From Candidatus Caccoplasma sp. (GTDB taxonomy: Bacteria > Bacteroidota > Bacteroidia > Bacteroidales > G3-4614), in contig JAZNCN010000028.1 of assembly GCA_045587545.1 (NCBI GenBank), forward strand, positions 79,045-143,044: a stretch of DNA of 64,000 nt, in the 5' to 3' direction. How positions within the stretch are numbered: position 1 is the stretch's first letter; each line of letters opens with the position of its first letter. The notes beneath the pieces were generated by a model. That model was not told the origin of the DNA. It searched no databases and saw only the letters and a program-made list of their open reading frames with translations. Both the position numbers and the translations under genes were made by a program. This document shows positions 8,697-16,787 of the stretch, piece after piece.

Positions 8697-11600
8697 ATGG
8701 ATAAAAATGAGTGTAGAATATATTATACTACAACTAATAATAAGATTATCAATTTTGAACATGCTGAAATTGATGCTAAGATTATTTCACACATATATAA
8801 AGATAAAGGAGTAATTACCTTTGATAAACCAATTACTAAGATTCCTCATAGTGCTTTCTCTAGGTGTTCTACATTTACTAGTATTGAAATTCCTAATAGT
8901 GTAACTAGCATTGAAAATTCTGCATTTGAGTATTGCTCTGAACTTACAAGCGTTGAGATACCTGATGGTGTAAAAAGTATTGGTTGGTGGGCGTTCTTTA
9001 AATGTTCTAAACTTACAAATGTTGAGATTCCTAATAGTGTAACTAGCATTGGCAATGCTGCTTTTTTGTGTTGCTCTGGACTTACAAATGTTGAGATTCC
9101 TCAGGGTGTGAAAAGTATTGGCAAACGTGCCTTTGCAAAATGCTCTAAACTTAAAAGTATTATTATTTCTAAAAGTGTAGAGGAAATTGGAAATTATGTT
9201 CTTTCAGAGTGTACTGAACTTGAAAATATAATTATAAACACAGAAAATAAGAAATATGATTCCCGAGGGGATTGTAATGCCATAATAGATACAACGAATA
9301 ATATTCTTATTGCAGGATGTAAAAATACAATTATTCCTGATAATATTACGGAAATAGGAGAGCATGCATTTGAATTCTGTAAATTAAAAACAATAGTAAT
9401 TCCAAAAGGTGTTACAAAAATAGGGGATGGAGCATTTTTTTGTTGTGAATCTCTTAAAACTTTAGAGTTACCTCTTGGTATAAATGAAATAGGATTGAGT
9501 GCTTTTGAAAATTGTTCAGCTCTTGAAAGAATTATCATTCCTAATAGTGTGACTAAAATAGGAGATAGAGCATTTGCATTTTGTAAATCTTTAACTCAAT
9601 TTGATGGTAATCTTGCTCTTGGAGACAAAAGATGTTTAGTTATAGACGGGACTTTAGTTGCATTTGCAGCTGCAGGAGTTTCTGATTATATTTTTCCAAA
9701 AGAAATTTCTTCTTATAATCGAACTGTTTTTTATAATAATAAACTTAAGACCTTAAGAAAAACATTAGATGTTTCGATTGGAAAAGGAAATGATTCGCAC
9801 CAACAAACAAAAGTCAAAGGTTCCAATAATATACACACCAAAACATGTATTCCAATATGTAACAATAACTCAATTATAGATGATTATTTTCAGCAAATTT
9901 CATCTATTGCAAAAGAGGAAGAAAAATGCAAATGGATTAAATCAGGAACAAATGTAACAATTCAAGGATTAACTTTATCACGAGGTAATTTTTACCTAGG
10001 TAATTATTATAAAGTTAATGAATGTCCTAATGGAATCAAATACTCATCGAAAGATAAAATTATCTTATGGGCAACTATAAATCCTGAGCTTTCAATTTTA
10101 AAAGGAACTTTCCGAAAAGAAGAATATTTCCTTTCTTATTATGATTTATCTCCAGAAGGTCGTTTTATATATTTGTCTTGGTTAGCTAATTTAATTCTAA
10201 CAAAAGATGTACCTCATGATATTTTACTATTGCATATTTGTGGAATACAACTACGCTTGTTTTTAGATATTGAATCCTCTATAGAAGAAAAAGAAGATTT
10301 AATAAATTATTTAATTAACTTGAAATCAGAATTATCTGAAAAGTCTAGAATAGCATATTACATTGATGAAGTAATAGATATATCATTAGCTAAATTCTTT
10401 TTGGGTCAAGCAAATAGGTTTTCTATTGAAAGTTTTAATTTCTTTAAAACTCATAAATATATTGATACTACAATCTTTTCTAAAGATAGTAATGATTGTT
10501 TTAATTCTGATGTAATTTTTGATATATATGCTGATTTGTACTCTAATAGTCCTTTAGCTAAATGTAAAAATTGGTTTACTTTATTTTTTGAAAAAAATAA
10601 AAAATATTATAAGTCATTAGATTCAAGGTGCAAATATAAAGAAGTAGTTCAAATACCTAATGTTTTACCTTCTAATTCATATTTGTATATTCAAAAAGAT
10701 TATAACTTTTGTCTCTTTGAAACAATTAATTACTCACAATATGTTATTGAATTAATAGAGAAATATTTTAAGAAATATAATGGAGATTTTTTGTCATTTA
10801 AACAAATATATCCATATACTATAAACCAAAATTCTCCGTTGGTTTATTTTTCACTTCCTAAATATATAACAGAGAATGAATCTCAAATTTTATCAAATTT
10901 TAAAGATAGTCTTGAATCTATTGTAAATTGCAAAGCTAATGTAGTTAATTACGATACTATAGCAGAATTGTTTGGAATTAAATGTAATGAGGATTTTTTA
11001 ACAAGACCTGTTATAGAATGTATTATATCCGGTTTGAGAAATTTAGGATATGGTATAGTTCCTAATATTAAAGTTTCTTGTGAAGACTTAATTAAAACTA
11101 AAGAATCATGTGTCATATATAAATACCCTAAGTCTTTGAAACTTAGCATAGACCAAGAATTTAAATATGCAGAAATTCTATGTAAATTATTAGCAATAAT
11201 AATGCAAGGTACTGATGTAAATAATCAAGAATTGGACGCAGTTTATGAGAATTTCACAAAATTAACTAATAATAAACATAATATTATATATTTATATTCT
11301 TATTTTCTATGGCTTTCACAAAGAAAGAATGTTTTAAATAAGAGTATAAAACAAGAATTGTCAACACTTGCAAGGTTTTATAAAAAAATTTTTATACAAG
11401 TTATATTAAATGTCATAACTACTTCTGATTTTGTTAATGAAAAAAGAATTTTAGCACTAAATAAACTAATTCCATTCTTAGATGAAAATATAGAATCAGT
11501 ACATTCTTTAATACATAAGTCTCTAGTTGGTGATTTTGATTCTGTTGTAACTGATAAATCCGATAATAAATCAGTTAGTATAAGTCAAGATATTGAACTT

Positions 11601-11930
11601 GATAGTAATAAGTTAAATACATTTAGAGAACAAACAAACGAAAGTCATTTACTGCTGTCTAAAATATTTGCCATAGATAACGAAGAAGAGTATTCGGAAA
11701 GTCAAAATTCTAGTATAAACATAACGAAGGAGATTCTTATAAAGATGTTAGAAAAGGATGTGTGGAATTATAACGATTTTTCACAATTATGTCATAACTA
11801 CGAAGTTTTACCCGGTTCAATACTTGAGCAAATTAATGATTATGCATATGAAATTGTTGATGATGTCATTGCAGAAGAAATAGATGATAAAATATATATT
11901 AATACAGAGTATAAAGATAAACTTATATGA
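8697..11930 (+). CDS. sngA: BspA-type LRR / TerB-N / TerB-like / TerB-C fusion protein (SngA-like component of a Shango-type cassette)
   Basis: 1077-aa uninterrupted ORF with no signal peptide. About aa 47-345 hold roughly 12 repeats of about 23 aa of the IPNSVTSIGNxAFxxCSxLTxV type (BspA LRR). About aa 410-525 look TerB-N-like (KWIKSGTNVTIQGLTLSRGNFYLG, YYDLSPEGRFIYLSWLAN). The C-terminus looks TerB-C-like (ELDSNKLNTFREQTNESHLLLSKIF, LPGSILEQINDYAYE). Confidence 0.75.
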   Translation: MDKNECRIYYTTTNNKIINFEHAEIDAKIISHIYKDKGVITFDKPITKIPHSAFSRCSTFTSIEIPNSVTSIENSAFEYCSELTSVEIPDGVKSIGWWAFFKCSKLTNVEIPNSVTSIGNAAFLCCSGLTNVEIPQGVKSIGKRAFAKCSKLKSIIISKSVEEIGNYVLSECTELENIIINTENKKYDSRGDCNAIIDTTNNILIAGCKNTIIPDNITEIGEHAFEFCKLKTIVIPKGVTKIGDGAFFCCESLKTLELPLGINEIGLSAFENCSALERIIIPNSVTKIGDRAFAFCKSLTQFDGNLALGDKRCLVIDGTLVAFAAAGVSDYIFPKEISSYNRTVFYNNKLKTLRKTLDVSIGKGNDSHQQTKVKGSNNIHTKTCIPICNNNSIIDDYFQQISSIAKEEEKCKWIKSGTNVTIQGLTLSRGNFYLGNYYKVNECPNGIKYSSKDKIILWATINPELSILKGTFRKEEYFLSYYDLSPEGRFIYLSWLANLILTKDVPHDILLLHICGIQLRLFLDIESSIEEKEDLINYLINLKSELSEKSRIAYYIDEVIDISLAKFFLGQANRFSIESFNFFKTHKYIDTTIFSKDSNDCFNSDVIFDIYADLYSNSPLAKCKNWFTLFFEKNKKYYKSLDSRCKYKEVVQIPNVLPSNSYLYIQKDYNFCLFETINYSQYVIELIEKYFKKYNGDFLSFKQIYPYTINQNSPLVYFSLPKYITENESQILSNFKDSLESIVNCKANVVNYDTIAELFGIKCNEDFLTRPVIECIISGLRNLGYGIVPNIKVSCEDLIKTKESCVIYKYPKSLKLSIDQEFKYAEILCKLLAIIMQGTDVNNQELDAVYENFTKLTNNKHNIIYLYSYFLWLSQRKNVLNKSIKQELSTLARFYKKIFIQVILNVITTSDFVNEKRILALNKLIPFLDENIESVHSLIHKSLVGDFDSVVTDKSDNKSVSISQDIELDSNKLNTFREQTNESHLLLSKIFAIDNEEEYSESQNSSINITKEILIKMLEKDVWNYNDFSQLCHNYEVLPGSILEQINDYAYEIVDDVIAEEIDDKIYINTEYKDKLI

Positions 11931-13252
11931 ATAAACCAATTAAACCAAAAGAACGAGAAACAATAATACAATCATTGAGAAGTGGTGTCGTTCCAAGAAT
12001 GGGATTACAACATATTCAAGTAGGACGTAGTAATGAGTTAAAATCATTTATTAAAGATATCGATATAATATCAGAGGGTGGTTCTTCTTTTCGATTTGTA
12101 ATTGGAGAGTATGGTTCAGGTAAAACATTCTTCCTGTCTTTAGTTAGGAGTATTGCTTTAGAAAAAGGACTAGTAACAATACATGCGGATTTATCCCCAA
12201 CAAAACGATTCTATGGTTCGGATGGTAAATCTAGACTGTTATTGTCAGATATGATTGGTAATTTATCTACTCGGACAAAACAAGACGGAAATGCTCTTCG
12301 AAATATTCTTGAGAAATTTATATCTATTGCTAAAGAAGAGGCAATTTCAAAAAATAAAACTGTATCATCCATAATTTCTAATAAACTTAGCGAACTTAAC
12401 GAATATACAGGTGGATATAATTTTATCTCTGTTATAAAAAAATTCTATGAAGCTTTAGAATCAGGAAATGATGAGTTAAAAGATTGTGCTATAAATTGGC
12501 TTAAGGCTGGATATACAACTAAGTCAGAAGCATATAAAGATTTAGGGGTTAAAAGTTTTATTGATGATAGTTCATTTTTTGATACCCTTATTTTGTATTC
12601 TGTTTTAGTAAAAAAAGCAGGATATAAAGGATTACTTATTTGTATTGATGAAATGGTAAATTTGTACAAAATTACTAATACGGTTTCTCGCAAGGCAAAT
12701 TATGAGATAATATTAACAATGTTAAACAATACTCTACAATGTTCTTTGTCAAATATTGGTTTTGTAATGTGTGGAACACCAGAATTTATGACTGATACAA
12801 ATAGAGGTCTATATAGTTATGAGGCTTTAAGATCTAGACTTGCAGAGAATAGCTTTTCAAGAAAACTAGGAGTTGTTGATTTTAATTCGATTGTGTTAAG
12901 ATTGGCAAGTCTTACTAAAGAAGAAATATATATTTTGCTATGTAACCTTAGACATGTTTTTGCAAGTGGGGTAGAAGAAAAATATTTAGTTCCTGATAAT
13001 GCTTTAATAGCATTTTTAAATCATTGTTCTAATAAAATCGGAGATAGCTATTTTAGGACACCTAGAACAACAATTAAAGGATTTATAGATTTGTTATCTA
13101 TTTTAGAACAATATCCAGAGTATGAATGGAATGATATTATTGATTCTGTAGAAGTTACAAAAGATATAGAACCTTCAATGATTGAATTAAATACTACTGA
13201 TGAATCTATGTCAAATTCAATAGATGACGAGTTTGCTAGTTTTAAGATATAA
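11927..13252 (+). CDS. sngB: DUF2791/BrxD-like P-loop ATPase (SngB-like)
   Basis: 441-aa ORF. ATGA overlap with the upstream gene. Walker A GEYGSGKTFF, Walker B LLICIDEM. The N-terminal RSGVVPRMGLQHIQVGR segment is typical of this ATPase family. Confidence 0.75.
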   Translation: MNKPIKPKERETIIQSLRSGVVPRMGLQHIQVGRSNELKSFIKDIDIISEGGSSFRFVIGEYGSGKTFFLSLVRSIALEKGLVTIHADLSPTKRFYGSDGKSRLLLSDMIGNLSTRTKQDGNALRNILEKFISIAKEEAISKNKTVSSIISNKLSELNEYTGGYNFISVIKKFYEALESGNDELKDCAINWLKAGYTTKSEAYKDLGVKSFIDDSSFFDTLILYSVLVKKAGYKGLLICIDEMVNLYKITNTVSRKANYEIILTMLNNTLQCSLSNIGFVMCGTPEFMTDTNRGLYSYEALRSRLAENSFSRKLGVVDFNSIVLRLASLTKEEIYILLCNLRHVFASGVEEKYLVPDNALIAFLNHCSNKIGDSYFRTPRTTIKGFIDLLSILEQYPEYEWNDIIDSVEVTKDIEPSMIELNTTDESMSNSIDDEFASFKI

Positions 13253-13262
13253 ATAAATCACA

Positions 13263-15452
13263 ATGAATCACAAATCTTCATCATTTGAATTACTTAATAG
13301 TAAAGTCCAGAAATGGATATGGAATCAAGGTTGGACCTCCTTAAAAGAAATTCAAGAAAACTCCATACCAGTAATTTTAAAAGGGGATAGTGATGTTATT
13401 ATTAGTGCTGAAACTGCTGGAGGTAAAACAGAAGCTGTATTTTTACCAATATTGTCAAAAATAGAAGAATTTAACGAACATAATTGTAATGTTATATATA
13501 TAAGTCCATTAAAAGCTTTAATTAATGATCAGTATAGACGTCTTTTAGATATGACGAATGATTTGAGTGTTAAAGTAACACCATGGCATGGCGATGTTAA
13601 TCAAAGTACAAAAAGTAAATGGATTAAAGAACCAACAGGTATTTTGATAATAACACCTGAATCATTAGAATCATTTCTTATAAATAAACATTCAAAGATA
13701 AAAGTGTTGTTCTCTAAAGTAATGTATATTGTGGTTGATGAATTCCATTCATTTATTGGGAATGAAAGAGGGAAACAACTACAATCATTATTATCTAGAA
13801 TTGAATCTATAACGAATAGAATTATACCAAGAGTTGCTATGAGTGCAACTTTTTCAAATTATGAATCAGTTAAGGATTTTCTTAGACCAGATAAAAAGTT
13901 GATGTGTGTAATACCATCACGAGGAGAGAGTAAGCAAAATGTTCGTTTGGTAATAAAAGCATATTCAAATTCATATAATGAAGATAGTGATAATGTTGTA
14001 CATAATGATATTAGTGAAGATATTTCTAATGAAATTTTTACCAAATTAAGAGGAAGCAATAATTTGGTATTTACCAATAGTAGATCTGAAGCAGAATTTT
14101 ATTCATTTTTATTGAGAAAGAAATGTGAAGACTTAGGTGTTCCTAATGAATTCCGAGTACATCATGGAAGTCTTTCTAAAGTAGAAAGGGAAAGTATTGA
14201 AAAGGAACTTCAAATAGGAAGTGTCCCGATAACTGCTTTTTGTACATCTACACTTGAATTAGGAGTTGATATAGGCAAAGTTAAATCTATTGCACAAATA
14301 GGAGTAGTTTCATCTGTCTCTGGATTAAAACAACGTTTAGGGCGCTCAGGTAGGCGTAATGAACCAGCAGAACTTCGTGTCTTTTCAATAGAAAAAGGCA
14401 CTGGCGATATTTTATCTGATTTAAGAACAAATTTAGTTCAAAATATTGCTGTAATTGAATTACTTCTTGAACATAAATACGAAAGTTATAATATAAATAA
14501 TTATCACTTATCGACTCTAATACAGCAAATACTTTCTGTTATTGCATCATATGGAAGTTTTTATCCAGAAGAAGGTTGGAAACTTTTATGTAAGAATGGT
14601 GCATTTAAAAACATAACACCAAAACTTTTTTTGAGTGTATTAAAGTCACTTGGACAAAAAAAAGTAGTTTCTCAACTCAATAATGGTCAGATAATTATAG
14701 GGAAAGAAGGAGAATATATATTGAGTGATTTAAATTTTTACACAGCATTTATTTCTTTTAAAAACTTTTCAGTTATAGATAATGCTAGTTCAAAAAAAAT
14801 AGGGGAAATTGGTATTGTCCCAAATATTAATGATACATTGTTACTTGCTAGTAGGCAATGGGAAGTAATAAATATAGATAAAAAAAGAAAGATAATATAT
14901 GTAGAGGCAACAAATTATTCGGGTAGTGTATATTTTAATGTGAATGATGGTATCGATGTTGATAGAATAATTACAAGGAAAATGAAAGAAATATATTCTA
15001 CGAATAACACATATTTATATCTTGATAAAAAAACAAATGCTCAGCATGAATTAGATATAGCAAGAAGTGTTTATTGTAATAATGGTTTAGAAAATAATTC
15101 GATAATTAATTATAAAGATATTTCAGATGATGATTCAGACGAAATTTCAATAATTTTCACATGGGAAGGAACAAAAGTAAACAGAACAATATCATTACTT
15201 AATGAATATTTTTCAGGGAGAAAAACAAAGTATAATGAATTAGTAATAATAGGAATTAGCGAAGAGGATATACATAATATTCTAAGCAATAAAAAACCTT
15301 CAGGAGAGGAACTAGCATCTTTGTTAAGAAGGGAAGACAAGGAAAAACAAAAATATGATTATTTATTATCTAATCAACTCCTCAATATAGAATATGGTAA
15401 TACATATATAGATATTGAGAATGCTTGGGATTATCTCAGCTCCATTGTATAA
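13263..15452 (+). CDS. sngC: Lhr-like DEAD/DExH-box helicase (SngC-like)
   Basis: 729-aa ORF. Motif I AETAGGKTEA, Ia YISPLKALINDQ, II VVDEFH, III MSATFSN, VI QRLGRSGRR. There is a 10-nt gap to the ATPase gene. Confidence 0.8.
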   Translation: MNHKSSSFELLNSKVQKWIWNQGWTSLKEIQENSIPVILKGDSDVIISAETAGGKTEAVFLPILSKIEEFNEHNCNVIYISPLKALINDQYRRLLDMTNDLSVKVTPWHGDVNQSTKSKWIKEPTGILIITPESLESFLINKHSKIKVLFSKVMYIVVDEFHSFIGNERGKQLQSLLSRIESITNRIIPRVAMSATFSNYESVKDFLRPDKKLMCVIPSRGESKQNVRLVIKAYSNSYNEDSDNVVHNDISEDISNEIFTKLRGSNNLVFTNSRSEAEFYSFLLRKKCEDLGVPNEFRVHHGSLSKVERESIEKELQIGSVPITAFCTSTLELGVDIGKVKSIAQIGVVSSVSGLKQRLGRSGRRNEPAELRVFSIEKGTGDILSDLRTNLVQNIAVIELLLEHKYESYNINNYHLSTLIQQILSVIASYGSFYPEEGWKLLCKNGAFKNITPKLFLSVLKSLGQKKVVSQLNNGQIIIGKEGEYILSDLNFYTAFISFKNFSVIDNASSKKIGEIGIVPNINDTLLLASRQWEVINIDKKRKIIYVEATNYSGSVYFNVNDGIDVDRIITRKMKEIYSTNNTYLYLDKKTNAQHELDIARSVYCNNGLENNSIINYKDISDDDSDEISIIFTWEGTKVNRTISLLNEYFSGRKTKYNELVIIGISEEDIHNILSNKKPSGEELASLLRREDKEKQKYDYLLSNQLLNIEYGNTYIDIENAWDYLSSIV

Positions 15453-15735: not shown

Positions 15736-15837
15736 ATGTCAAATATAGTATATTTATTAGGAGCAGGAGCTAGTTATGGAAACAAAAATAGAGTATATTA
15801 TTATAATAATAGAGCAAATAATCAACCAGAAAGATGA
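15736..15837 (+). CDS. 33-codon mini-ORF (MSNIVYLLGAGASYGNKNRVYYYNNRANNQPER) coupled to the AbiH-like gene
   Basis: Preceded by an atypical purine-rich SD-like aaaggaaagggagt. Its TGA overlaps the downstream ATG (ATGA at 15834-15837). It could be a gene remnant and is not in the ORF track (<60 aa). Confidence 0.25.
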   Translation: MSNIVYLLGAGASYGNKNRVYYYNNRANNQPER

Positions 15838-16787
15838 ATGAAAATACACTTATAATAGGAAATGGATTTGATTTAGATTTAGGTTTAAAAACAAATTATT
15901 TAGATTTTGCAGATTCAACATATTGGCCAAAGTTAGAAAGTATATATAAACCATACTTAAAATCAAAATTAGAAGAAAGGATATCAGATAATCCTTGTTG
16001 GTTTGACATAGAAGAAGAACTACTTAAATATGCAACTATTGATAAATCTAATAAGACACTAAAAGATTACGCTTCATATAATAATAAAATAGATCAAGAT
16101 TTCTTTAATAAATTATTATCTGGCTTTTGCGAATATTTAGAAAATGAAGAAAAAAAAGATATAATAAAAGATTCATATGCAGCAAAAGTTTTAAGTAGTG
16201 TAGTATTAAATGGATATTTTGAGCATATATACTCATTTAATTATACTAATTTAAACACTTTCGCAAAACGCTTAAATATAACAAAAGATATAAATTATAA
16301 TCATATTCATGGTAAGATAAAAGATAGGTCAATTATTCTTGGAGTAAATGAAAGTCAAAAACTTATATCCAACTATGAGTTTTTATACAAATCATCTAGC
16401 CCATATTATAAAAGCAATAATCTTGACAGTGATTTATTTAATTCCAAAGAAGTTGTAATATTTGGATTGTCATTTGGACATATTGATTTTCAATATTTTG
16501 ACTATTTTTTCAAATCAATATTAGATGCTAAGATAATTCCCTCAGATAAAAAGAAACATATAACTATTTTTACCAAAGATGATAATTCAAGAATGGAAAT
16601 TTTAAAAAAACTTAGAGATAAGCAAATTATAGTTACTGATTTATACCAGAAATCTTATTTTGAAATAATAAAAACTACAGACCCTAAAGATATAGATAAA
16701 TTAGACTCATTTATTAAAAGACTAAATAATAATAGCATTGATAAATTTAATGAAAATTTATCTAAATTAGAGAGAATGATATACTAA
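15834..16787 (+). CDS. AbiH-like abortive-infection family protein
   Basis: 317-aa ORF. The N-terminal LIIGNGFDLDLGLKTNYLDF matches the hallmark N-terminus of the AbiH family. Very AT-rich. Sits next to the Shango-type cassette. Confidence 0.7.
   Translation: MNENTLIIGNGFDLDLGLKTNYLDFADSTYWPKLESIYKPYLKSKLEERISDNPCWFDIEEELLKYATIDKSNKTLKDYASYNNKIDQDFFNKLLSGFCEYLENEEKKDIIKDSYAAKVLSSVVLNGYFEHIYSFNYTNLNTFAKRLNITKDINYNHIHGKIKDRSIILGVNESQKLISNYEFLYKSSSPYYKSNNLDSDLFNSKEVVIFGLSFGHIDFQYFDYFFKSILDAKIIPSDKKKHITIFTKDDNSRMEILKKLRDKQIIVTDLYQKSYFEIIKTTDPKDIDKLDSFIKRLNNNSIDKFNENLSKLERMIY

What the first reader, a model, noticed from the sequence alone, without database searches (positions are those of the whole stretch)
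8835..9731. Cytoplasmic BspA-type leucine-rich-repeat array fused to the N-terminus of the TerB-N/TerB-C protein, a possible sensor module
Seen in the sequence: about 12 tandem repeats of about 23 aa (e.g. VEIPNSVTSIGNAAFLCCSGLTN, VEIPQGVKSIGKRAFAKCSKLKS) occupy the first ~345 aa of the same uninterrupted 1077-aa ORF that carries the TerB-N/TerB-C regions. The N-terminus (MDKNECRIYYTTTNNK) has no signal peptide or lipobox. Several repeat units are near-identical at the DNA level. For example, attcctaatagtgtaactagcattg occurs near 8889 and 9027, and cttacaaatgttgagattcct near 9011 and 9080. Established knowledge: BspA-type LRRs are normally found on secreted or surface proteins of Bacteroidota. 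LRR, TPR and WD40 arrays act as ligand-sensing domains in NLR-like and Avs-type immune proteins. To my recollection, the SngA proteins described so far do not have an LRR domain. Inference: the LRR array could be the specificity or sensing part of this defence cassette, and the DNA-level repeats could let it diversify by recombination.
Basis: partly seen in the sequence, partly recalled or inferred. Interest (0 to 1): 0.8.

Follow-up and report, generated by a model that had tools for sequence, protein, structure and literature searches.

The report
Leucine-rich-repeat head on Shango SngA
A known three-gene anti-phage system (Shango) in an uncultured gut-type Bacteroidales genome carries a rare, real and previously undescribed cytoplasmic leucine-rich-repeat domain on its first protein, which probably binds a protein partner and may help reveal what this poorly understood system senses.

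Summary
ORF 8697-11930 (1077 aa) is uninterrupted. Residues ~40-345 are a BspA-type LRR array (Pfam LRR_5, E 2e-60; AF2 pLDDT >90). There is no signal peptide or TM segment. Residues 403-1076 match SngA, and SngB and SngC follow, so this is a complete Shango cassette.

The fusion is not an artefact. Nine other protein clusters from ENA, Logan and NCBI assemblies have the same architecture and neighbours. It is rare: 1 of 89 family representatives. No name or paper describes it. In most relatives the N-terminal slot holds predicted membrane helices.

The sensor idea is plausible but untested. The LRR is under purifying selection (dN/dS 0.14, like the core). Close sister systems lack it. The internal DNA repeats are old (82% identity at best).

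However, the array is a chimera. Residues 63-232 match generic BspA proteins (55-59%) far better than clade members (32-34%). The N-cap, last units and a clade-specific C-cap are retained. So remodelling by block exchange did occur.

Best reading: a protein-binding input module with constant caps and a replaceable middle. This is a new variant of a known system, of moderate interest.

The parts
8697..11930 (+). sngA: 1077-aa LRR-SngA fusion protein (whole ORF including stop)
   Evidence: ORF list and translation. Pfam LRR_5 + TerB_N (weak) + TerB_C. PADLOC SngA E 8.7e-29. The identical protein is called by NCBI.
8697..8813 (+). N-terminal cap of the solenoid (aa 1-39, 'IYYTTTNNK...')
   Evidence: Beta strands 6-12, 29-34 and 38-42 in the AF2 model, block-mean pLDDT 80-94 over aa 1-40. 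Best matches are the LRR-SngA clade, 48-53% identity.
8814..9227 (+). Six canonical 23-aa BspA-type LRR units (aa 40-177)
   Evidence: Unit parsing. pLDDT >90. A local unit HMM finds 10 units in the protein.
8853..9197 (+). DNA-level tandem repeat, period 69 nt (one unit) or 138 nt (two units)
   Evidence: the repeat finder family D1 and TRF score 374. Exact 25-nt and 21-nt repeats. 78-82% identity, dS 0.28-1.07.
8883..9392 (+). Replaced or imported block (aa 63-232) of generic BspA-type LRR origin; includes the irregular unit aa 178-209
   Evidence: Best BLASTP hits are generic LRR_5 proteins, 55-59% identity over about 165 aa. Clade members rank 121 or lower at 32-34%. The clade-specific internal 'DKRCL...FA' unit is absent.
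9393..9599 (+). Last three LRR units (aa 233-301), shared with the LRR-SngA clade
   Evidence: 51-59% identity to clade members, which rank first. Alignment.
9600..9731 (+). Clade-specific C-terminal cap (aa 302-345, 'DKRCLVIDGTLVAFA...DYIFP..SY..TVF')
   Evidence: 59-72% identity across lineages whose cores are about 33% identical. The motif is in 9 of 9 LRR-SngA and 0 of 120 generic LRR_5 proteins.
9732..9911 (+). Poorly conserved, predicted disordered linker (aa 346-405)
   Evidence: pLDDT <50 in both AF2 models. 24-28% identity among lineages.
9912..11927 (+). SngA core: TerB-N-like region (aa 416-535), helical middle with a TerB-like fold, TerB-C (aa 961-1076)
   Evidence: PADLOC SngA. 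Pfam. Foldseek hits to TerB-like 2h5n and 2ou3. 613 homologues in the representative library.
11927..13252 (+). sngB: BrxC/BrxD-type ATPase; start codon overlaps the sngA stop (ATGA)
   Evidence: PADLOC SngB E 1.6e-163, Pfam BrxC_BrxD E 1.2e-139. Walker A 'GEYGSGKT' and Walker B 'ICIDE' read directly. Junction.
13263..15452 (+). sngC: DEAD/Lhr-like helicase
   Evidence: PADLOC SngC E 7e-223, Pfam DEAD + Helicase_C. Motifs 'AETAGGKT', 'DEFH', 'SAT' and 'QRLGRSGRR' read directly.

Best explanation
The ORF is the SngA subunit of a complete Shango anti-phage cassette (sngA-sngB-sngC) in an uncultured Bacteroidales genome.

Its first ~345 residues are a genuine cytoplasmic BspA-type (LRR_5) solenoid. 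A ~60-residue disordered linker ties it to the TerB-N/TerB-C core. The solenoid occupies the N-terminal slot that holds a membrane anchor in most related SngA proteins.

I read it as an accessory protein-binding input module, a sensor in the broad sense. It has constant parts: the N-cap, the last three units and a clade-specific C-cap. These parts are under purifying selection and probably communicate with the SngA core or with SngB/SngC. It also has a replaceable middle that sets what is bound.

Proposed mechanism: binding of a protein ligand relieves or recruits the SngA core, which licenses the SngB ATPase and SngC helicase to act on phage DNA. The ligand is most likely a conserved phage protein or a phage-altered host protein.

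Shown here: the architecture, the cytoplasmic location, recurrence of the fusion, its rarity, purifying selection, and block replacement in the array.

Inferred: ligand binding, the identity of the ligand, and the coupling to SngB/SngC.
For: The cassette is complete, with intact catalytic motifs.

The LRR is a high-confidence solenoid. pLDDT is >90 over aa 1-305 and pTM is 0.76. The nearest structures are the LRR_5 crystals 4gt6, 4h09, 4cp6 and 4fs7, with TM-scores 0.45-0.54.

There is no signal peptide or TM segment.

The same fusion with the same SngB and SngC neighbours appears in ENA, Logan and NCBI assemblies.

The LRR is under purifying selection: dN/dS 0.14, against 0.13 for TerB-N and 0.18 for the middle region.

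The C-cap is 59-72% identical across lineages whose cores are about 33% identical. Its motif is absent from all 120 generic LRR_5 relatives.

The N-terminal slot is modular across the family. It holds TM helices in 49 of 72 extensions, and otherwise PG_binding_1, SH3_3, DnaJ_C, TM2 or TGS.

The middle of the array (aa 63-232) matches generic BspA LRRs at 55-59% but clade members at only 32-34%. It was later lengthened by a two-unit duplication.

The Foldseek list also includes eukaryotic receptor ectodomains and internalins, which are LRR proteins that bind protein ligands (established knowledge).

A TIR_2-LRR_5 protein without a signal peptide lies beside a Cas9 locus. This shows the same LRR type joined to an immune-type domain elsewhere.
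Against: There is no functional data. No Shango mechanism is published in the library searched.

Sister systems P0009 and P0016 have no LRR and no LRR remnant, so the module is dispensable for the system as such.

Selection is purifying, with no excess of amino-acid change in the LRR.

Only one assembly carries the expanded variant, so strain-level variation is unknown.

The full-length model is too poor to show any LRR-core contact (pLDDT 65, pTM 0.39).

The slot's usual occupant is a membrane anchor, which fits a localisation role as well as a sensing role.
Confidence: 0.45

Rival explanations
1. Localisation tether. The LRR binds a conserved host protein, for example one associated with the envelope or the nucleoid. 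It simply replaces the membrane anchor of related SngA proteins and positions the complex. It does not detect phage.
For: 49 of 72 N-terminal extensions in 89 family representatives hold predicted TM helices. Others carry PG_binding_1 or SH3_3 domains, which are localisation-type modules. The LRR is under purifying selection and the caps are strongly conserved. Published views link TerB proteins to the membrane and to 'membrane surveillance' (10.1101/2022.05.11.491447; 10.1101/2025.09.30.679545).
Against: A fixed host partner predicts a fixed binding surface. Yet the middle ~170 aa of the array was replaced and lengthened in this lineage. Sister systems have neither an anchor nor an LRR (17 of 89 representatives have extensions under 40 aa).
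Confidence: 0.3
2. Fast-diversifying specificity determinant. The internal near-identical DNA repeats would drive ongoing recombination or slippage, so repeat number and sequence would vary between strains.
For: There is a tandem 69/138-nt array with exact 21- and 25-nt repeats. Unit number differs between the window protein (10 units) and its homologues (4-6 units).
Against: The duplicated blocks are only 78-82% identical, with dS 0.28-1.07 and dN/dS 0.2-0.6, so the duplication is old. LRR dN/dS between two homologues is 0.14, the same as the core. The eight P0001-P0008 clusters differ in total length by only 4 aa, 978-982 aa.
Confidence: 0.1
3. Regulatory scaffold. The solenoid auto-inhibits or oligomerises SngA, or docks SngB/SngC, and has no external ligand.
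For: The most conserved, clade-specific segment is the C-cap next to the linker. This is what one would expect of an intramolecular or intra-complex interface.
Against: It does not explain why the middle block was exchanged for a generic one. It also does not explain why sister systems need no such scaffold. Contacts could not be modelled (pTM 0.39).
Confidence: 0.1
4. Artefact or neutral accident: an assembly chimera, a decaying fusion with a neighbouring surface-protein gene, or an exported surface LRR.
For: The expanded variant is known from one assembly only. Most of the closest LRR_5 relatives look extracellular: 77 of 120 have an N-terminal hydrophobic segment, and some carry Pfam families I recall as dockerin (PF00404), BACON (PF13004) and fn3 (PF00041).
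Against: The same architecture occurs in nine other 90%-identity clusters from three data sources, with identical gene neighbours. There is no stop or frameshift. dN/dS is 0.14. There is no signal peptide, TM segment or room for an upstream start.
Confidence: 0.03

Closest known systems
Canonical Shango system (SngA-SngB-SngC; Millman et al. 2022 preprint 10.1101/2022.05.11.491447; P. aeruginosa PA14 system, 10.1101/2022.11.11.516204)
   Same: Same three genes in the same order. All three match the PADLOC models: SngA E 8.7e-29, SngB E 1.6e-163, SngC E 7e-223. SngA has the TerB-N/TerB-C core. The ATPase and helicase motifs are intact.
   Different: SngA carries an extra ~400-aa N-terminal BspA-type LRR plus linker. 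This region lies outside the 528-position SngA profile. The papers read do not mention it.
BspA-type LRR (Pfam LRR_5) proteins, e.g. solved structures 4gt6, 4h09, 4fs7, TpLRR 6mlx, PcpA 4cp6
   Same: Same repeat family (202.5 bits) and same predicted solenoid, with TM-scores 0.45-0.54. The middle block is 55-59% identical to generic members.
   Different: Those are mostly surface or secreted proteins; several PDB titles say 'cell surface protein'. 77 of 120 close relatives have an N-terminal hydrophobic segment. This one has no export signal, is fused to an intracellular defence protein, and has a C-cap found only in the LRR-SngA clade.
Membrane-anchored SngA-like relatives found here (e.g. 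P0011-P0015, P0017, P0021; unnamed)
   Same: Homologous SngA core, 28-34% identity. At least one (P0013, L008) is followed by SngB and SngC genes. All have an N-terminal extension of 230-290 aa before the core.
   Different: Their extension begins with one or two predicted TM helices and has no LRR. The window protein has an LRR and no TM segment.
NLR-like / STAND defence proteins (Avs, bNACHT)
   Same: Functional analogy only: a terminal repeat solenoid attached to an NTP-dependent defence machine. The repeat domain is thought to bind a protein signature of infection (papers listed).
   Different: There is no NACHT, NB-ARC or STAND domain in the LRR protein. The ATPase is a separate BrxC/D-type protein. 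The repeats are N-terminal and of the BspA type.
Other TerB-containing defence systems (Bunzi BnzA, Dionysus DinB)
   Same: A TerB-family domain in a defence cassette. The proposed role is membrane surveillance.
   Different: The partner genes differ, no LRR is reported, and those TerB proteins or their partners are membrane-associated.

Membership tests
Shango defence system | SngA: protein with TerB-N and TerB-C regions | tested here: met
   PADLOC SngA E 8.7e-29 over aa 403-1076. Pfam TerB_C scores 42 bits (cut-off 26.3). TerB_N alone is below its cut-off (19.5 vs 25), but 33 of 36 aligned relatives hit it.
Shango defence system | SngB: BrxC/BrxD-type (DUF2791) ATPase encoded next to SngA | tested here: met
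   PADLOC SngB E 1.6e-163. Pfam BrxC_BrxD E 1.2e-139. Walker A and B motifs present. Start codon overlaps the sngA stop.
Shango defence system | SngC: DEAD/Lhr-like helicase as third gene, same strand | tested here: met
   PADLOC SngC E 7e-223. Pfam DEAD + Helicase_C. Helicase motifs I, II, III and VI present.
Shango defence system | Protects against phage | not testable with these tools
   Requires cloning and plaque assays. Context is only suggestive: AbiH lies next door and the island is low in GC.
BspA-type LRR (Pfam LRR_5) | Repeat sequence matches the family model above its curated threshold | tested here: met
   202.5 bits against a cut-off of 27.7, E 2.3e-60. 10 units found by a local unit HMM.
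BspA-type LRR (Pfam LRR_5) | Solenoid fold like solved LRR_5 structures | tested here: met
   AF2 pLDDT >90 for aa 1-305. Foldseek 4gt6 E 6e-13; TM-scores (query-normalised) 0.45-0.53 for 4gt6, 4h09, 4cp6 and 4fs7.
BspA-type LRR (Pfam LRR_5) | Export signal or surface attachment (typical of the family, not formally defining) | tested here: not met
   No hydrophobic segment in 1077 aa. The ORF starts at the first start codon after a stop. Homologues start at the same place.
NLR-like / STAND (Avs, bNACHT) | STAND NTPase (NACHT or NB-ARC) in the same polypeptide as the repeat sensor | tested here: not met
   Pfam finds only LRR_5, LRR_8, TerB_N and TerB_C in the protein. PADLOC finds only SngA.
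Membrane-anchored SngA-like proteins | N-terminal transmembrane helix or hairpin before the core | tested here: not met
   The Kyte-Doolittle scan finds none in the window protein. It finds them in 49 of 72 extended relatives.

The most novel reading that the evidence does not exclude
BspA-type LRRs may be a so far unrecognised class of cytoplasmic pattern-recognition modules in the immunity of gut anaerobes. Examples here are LRR-SngA in Shango and a TIR-LRR_5 protein next to a CRISPR locus. They would be built with constant caps and an exchangeable middle cassette drawn from the large pool of BspA genes. That would be a prokaryotic counterpart, convergent or ancestral, of the LRR-based receptors of eukaryotes. 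It would also identify the infection trigger of Shango.
Probability: 0.25. Interest if true: 0.75.

Novelty: new variant of a known kind. Interest (0 to 1): 0.48.

Why it matters
No mechanism or trigger for Shango appears in the papers found here. They offer only a guess that its TerB protein watches the membrane.

A soluble SngA with a discrete, high-confidence protein-binding domain gives an experimental handle. The LRR can be deleted, swapped or used as bait to find what the system recognises or where it docks.

The result also shows that the N-terminus of SngA is a modular slot holding a membrane anchor, nothing, or an LRR. This constrains models of how the system is activated.

More broadly, to my recollection LRR domains are uncommon in the bacterial antiviral proteins described so far. 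A cytoplasmic BspA-type LRR on a defence protein, together with a TIR-LRR_5 protein seen in passing, would widen the known sensor repertoire. It would also suggest a non-surface function for a repeat family that is very abundant in gut bacteria.

Tried and rejected
Genome-collection scan with the whole protein. It returned only two unrelated LRR genes in Clostridia MAGs, because the patterns drawn from the SngA part found nothing. No taxonomy or further loci came from it.

Profile search with a diverse SngA-core alignment. It added only one protein because of the word-index limit. The exhaustive representative search was the useful one.

Search with the LRR module. It was flooded by generic BspA proteins. 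It served only as a background set, and it revealed the TIR-LRR_5 protein.

Look-ups of the window's own SngA and SngB in the gene-position index. Neither is indexed, although both sequences are in the protein collection.

Two degenerate-DNA scans of JGI metagenome contigs, one for the expanded variant and one for the C-cap motif. Both gave 0 hits, so repeat number could not be compared between strains.

Full-length AlphaFold model. pTM was 0.39, so the question of whether the solenoid packs against TerB-N could not be answered.

Sigma-70 promoter and terminator scan. Counts equalled the shuffled controls, and Bacteroidota promoters are not covered by this scan.

PDB sequence searches with the SngA core, SngB and the core profile. 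No solved relatives were found.

Rejected argument: 'the LRR is more conserved than the core'. It is largely a floor effect of the repeat consensus, since generic LRR_5 proteins are already 36-56% identical to the query. Only the C-cap conservation and the dN/dS values are used as evidence.

GC and GC3 of the imported block. There was no clear contrast with the flanking parts of the gene.

I could not retrieve Anantharaman et al. 2012, the paper that defined TerB-N and TerB-C. Whether it lists LRR fusions is therefore unchecked.
Full report
OBSERVATION

The window holds one uninterrupted ORF at 8697-11930 (+), 1077 aa. Pfam finds three regions:
- A BspA-type LRR region: LRR_5, 202.5 bits against a gathering score of 27.7, E 2.3e-60.
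- A TerB_C domain at aa 961-1076: 42 bits against 26.3.
- A sub-threshold TerB_N match at aa 416-535: 19.5 bits against 25.

The PADLOC SngA profile (528 positions) aligns only to aa 403-1076. The first ~400 residues are therefore extra to the canonical protein.

I parse the array into 10 canonical 22-23-aa units. Six span aa 40-177 and four span aa 210-301. Two long irregular units lie at aa 178-209 and aa 302-345.

A Kyte-Doolittle scan finds no hydrophobic segment in the protein. The ORF already starts at the first start codon after the upstream stop, and homologues start at the same place. The protein is therefore cytoplasmic as far as sequence can tell.

None of 100 shuffles gave a match for either. 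A 69/138-nt tandem array is reported at 8853-9197.

The units are not near-identical, however. The best pair is 82% identical and the two-unit block is 78% identical. Synonymous divergence is 0.28-1.07 and dN/dS is 0.2-0.6, so the duplication is old.

WHAT IT IS

The next two ORFs are SngB and SngC:
- SngB, 11927-13252: PADLOC E 1.6e-163, Pfam BrxC_BrxD.
- SngC, 13263-15452: PADLOC E 7e-223, DEAD + Helicase_C.

The sngA stop overlaps the sngB start (ATGA), and a 10-nt gap precedes sngC. The Walker motifs of SngB and helicase motifs I, II, III and VI of SngC can be read directly in the translations. This is a complete Shango cassette.

An AbiH gene follows at 15834-16787. The four genes have 22-29% GC, against 34-42% for the flanking thiC, dnaA and ribonucleotide reductase genes. 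This looks like a small defence island in a chromosomal housekeeping region: the thi operon lies upstream and RNR, nitroreductase and dnaA lie downstream.

The window matches a 250,291-bp NCBI contig. The DnaA protein shares a 90% cluster with MBQ7819560.1, which is labelled 'Bacteroidales bacterium' (MAG).

IS THE FUSION REAL AND HOW COMMON IS IT?

NCBI called the identical 1077-aa protein.

Searching with the SngA part (aa 400-1077) returned nine other 90%-identity clusters with precomputed LRR_5 + TerB_C:
- P0001-P0008: 62-65% identical, 978-982 aa.
- P0010: 33% identical, 946 aa.

They come from ENA, Logan and NCBI assemblies. The three loci I inspected (P0008, P0002 and P0010) all have BrxC_BrxD and DEAD-helicase genes directly downstream. 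An assembly artefact is therefore excluded for this architecture.

An exhaustive HMMER search of 1.84 billion representatives found 613 relatives of the core at E<=0.001 and 46 at E<=1e-30. Among the 165 SngA-like proteins collected, a local LRR-unit HMM hits only three groups:
- the window protein, 10 units;
- P0001-P0008, 4-6 units;
- P0010, 5 units.

Among 89 representatives whose match begins at the start of the core:
- 17 have an N-terminal extension shorter than 40 aa.
- 72 have an extension of 40 aa or more, and 49 of these contain a predicted TM segment.
- One is the LRR type.

Pfam on 36 extended members adds PG_binding_1 (3 members), and TM2, SH3_3, DnaJ_C, TGS and DUF4236 (1 each). 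LRR_5 occurs only in the three LRR-SngA sequences.

The N-terminus of SngA-like proteins is therefore a modular slot. Its usual occupant is a membrane anchor, and the LRR is a rare alternative.

No source gives these proteins a name other than 'hypothetical protein'. None of the Shango or TerB papers I could read mentions an LRR. The founding TerB-N/TerB-C paper was not available.

STRUCTURE

Folded alone with a 46-sequence alignment, the N-terminal 400 aa give pLDDT >90 for aa 1-305 and pTM 0.76. The model shows one continuous beta-solenoid with an N-terminal cap. Residues 319-400 are predicted disordered.

Its best PDB matches are BspA-type LRR_5 crystal structures: 4gt6, 4h09, PcpA 4cp6 and 4fs7. 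E-values reach 6e-13 and TM-scores are 0.45-0.54.

The full-length model is poor (pLDDT 65, pTM 0.39). It says nothing about packing of the solenoid against TerB-N. It does recover TerB-like folds in the core (2h5n, 2ou3).

No solved relative of the SngA core or SngB was found by sequence.

EVOLUTIONARY BEHAVIOUR OF THE LRR

(a) Selection. Between the P0002 and P0008 genes, dN/dS is 0.14 for the N-cap plus LRR, 0.13 for the TerB-N-like region and 0.18 for the middle region. The LRR is thus under ordinary purifying selection.

(b) Presence and absence. A neighbour-joining tree of the core gives a 99%-supported clade with four members: window + P0001-P0008 (LRR), P0009 (no extension), P0010 (LRR) and P0016 (no extension). 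The LRR-bearing lineages are never monophyletic (0 of 100 bootstraps).
- The P0016 loci have the same gene order as the P0010 locus, including a 341-343-aa downstream gene. They show no LRR remnant.
- The module has therefore been lost or transferred at least twice. It is not essential to the system.

(c) Conserved and variable parts. The canonical units are 44-57% identical between lineages. This is close to the floor set by the repeat consensus, since generic LRR_5 proteins are already 36-56% identical to the query.
- The C-cap (aa 302-345) is 59-72% identical between lineages whose cores are about 33% identical.
- Its motif D[KR]RC[LIV]x[LIV]xGxL[LIV]AF occurs in 9 of 9 LRR-SngA proteins and 0 of 120 generic LRR_5 relatives.

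(d) Chimerism. BLASTP was run on three segments of the window's array against all proteins collected:
- aa 1-62: best hits are clade members, 48-53% identity.
- aa 233-345: best hits are clade members, 51-59% identity.
- aa 63-232: best hits are generic BspA-type proteins, 55-59% identity over about 165 aa. Clade members rank 121st or lower, at 32-34%.

P0001-P0008 and P0010 share an internal 'DKRCL...FA' unit that the window protein lacks. The simplest history is that this lineage replaced the middle of its array with a block from the generic BspA pool. A two-unit tandem duplication then lengthened it.

MECHANISM (INFERRED)

The anatomy is a rigid protein-binding solenoid on a flexible ~60-aa linker, placed in front of the TerB-N/TerB/TerB-C core. 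It has constant caps and a replaceable middle.

I consider it most likely (0.45) that the LRR is an input module. Its middle units would bind a protein ligand, namely a conserved phage protein or a phage-altered host protein. Its constant C-cap would communicate with the SngA core or with SngB/SngC, gating the ATPase and helicase.

The main rival (0.30) is that it tethers the complex to a conserved host partner and so substitutes for the membrane anchor of relatives. The slot equivalence and the purifying selection favour this rival. The exchange of the middle block argues against it.

The other readings are less likely:
- An internal scaffold or auto-inhibitor: 0.10.
- An artefact, a neutral fusion or an exported protein: 0.03. 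This one is contradicted by the evidence above.

COMPARISON WITH KNOWN SYSTEMS

It is a member of Shango by every feature that could be tested. It carries a member of Pfam LRR_5.

It is not an NLR/STAND protein. It has no NACHT or NB-ARC domain, and the ATPase is a separate BrxC/D-type protein. The resemblance to NLR-like sensors is functional analogy only.

VERDICT

The fusion is real, rare and unannotated. The sensor interpretation is plausible and gains some support from the block exchange. It is untested, it is not backed by hypervariability, and it has a serious rival in a tethering role.

This is a new variant of a known kind of system. Interest is moderate. Its main value is as an experimental handle on the unknown trigger of Shango, and as a hint that BspA-type LRRs also have intracellular immune uses.

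Noticed in passing
L009:6001-7707 (protein P0261, NCBI GCA_045612045.1): A 568-aa protein with an N-terminal TIR_2 domain followed by a long BspA-type LRR_5 array and no signal peptide. It lies two genes downstream of a Cas9-Cas1-Cas2 locus. This TIR-LRR architecture in a bacterium may be an intracellular immune protein.
   Followed up: partly
L003:9900-11200 versus L005 (sngA 3' third and first ~300 nt of sngB): A patch of about 1.3 kb is 98-100% identical between two Shango loci that are otherwise 68-84% identical. The last ~300 nt of the aligned stretch (from about L003:14193, the end of sngC and just beyond) is also 100% identical. This indicates recent recombination or gene-conversion patches between related systems.
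   Followed up: partly
L006:869-2973, L007:3496-4740, L008:8606-10720: Related Shango loci carry a second SngA-like gene. L006 has a split TerB_N (382 aa) + TerB_C (310 aa) pair upstream of LRR-sngA. L007 has a 414-aa GyrA_C beta-propeller + TerB_C protein. L008 has a 704-aa paralogue after a TM-anchored SngA. The window has only one sngA.
   Followed up: no
window:15834-16787: An AbiH-family abortive-infection gene (Pfam E 3e-25) lies directly downstream of sngC. Together with sngABC it forms a low-GC (22-29%) island between the thi operon/esterase/OMP-like genes and the ribonucleotide reductase, nitroreductase and dnaA genes.
   Followed up: partly
protein P0020 (1136 aa) and L007:3496-4740: DNA_gyraseA_C beta-propeller repeats are attached to TerB_C in some SngA-like proteins. 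This is a second kind of repeat domain recruited by the family, here a DNA-wrapping type.
   Followed up: no
window:8697-11927 / protein cluster of P0322: In the 90%-identity protein collection, the window's 1077-aa SngA is filed under an unrelated 55-aa JGI fragment as representative. This is why homology searches never returned a self hit. It looks like a clustering artefact of the database.
   Followed up: yes
window:8544-8600: An inverted repeat GTCCCAC ... GTGGGAC, with an inner CTCT-TTTTACA-AGAG hairpin, lies in the 332-nt intergenic region upstream of sngA. It could be a terminator of the upstream gene or a regulatory or boundary element of the island.
   Followed up: no
relatives P0011-P0015, P0017, P0021 etc. 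(alignment A1): TM-anchored SngA relatives share a conserved segment with no Pfam family between the TM hairpin and the core. Its consensus is roughly VPxW...QxxFYxxFK...G..D.....NYxFxLxF. The LRR clade lacks it.
   Followed up: no
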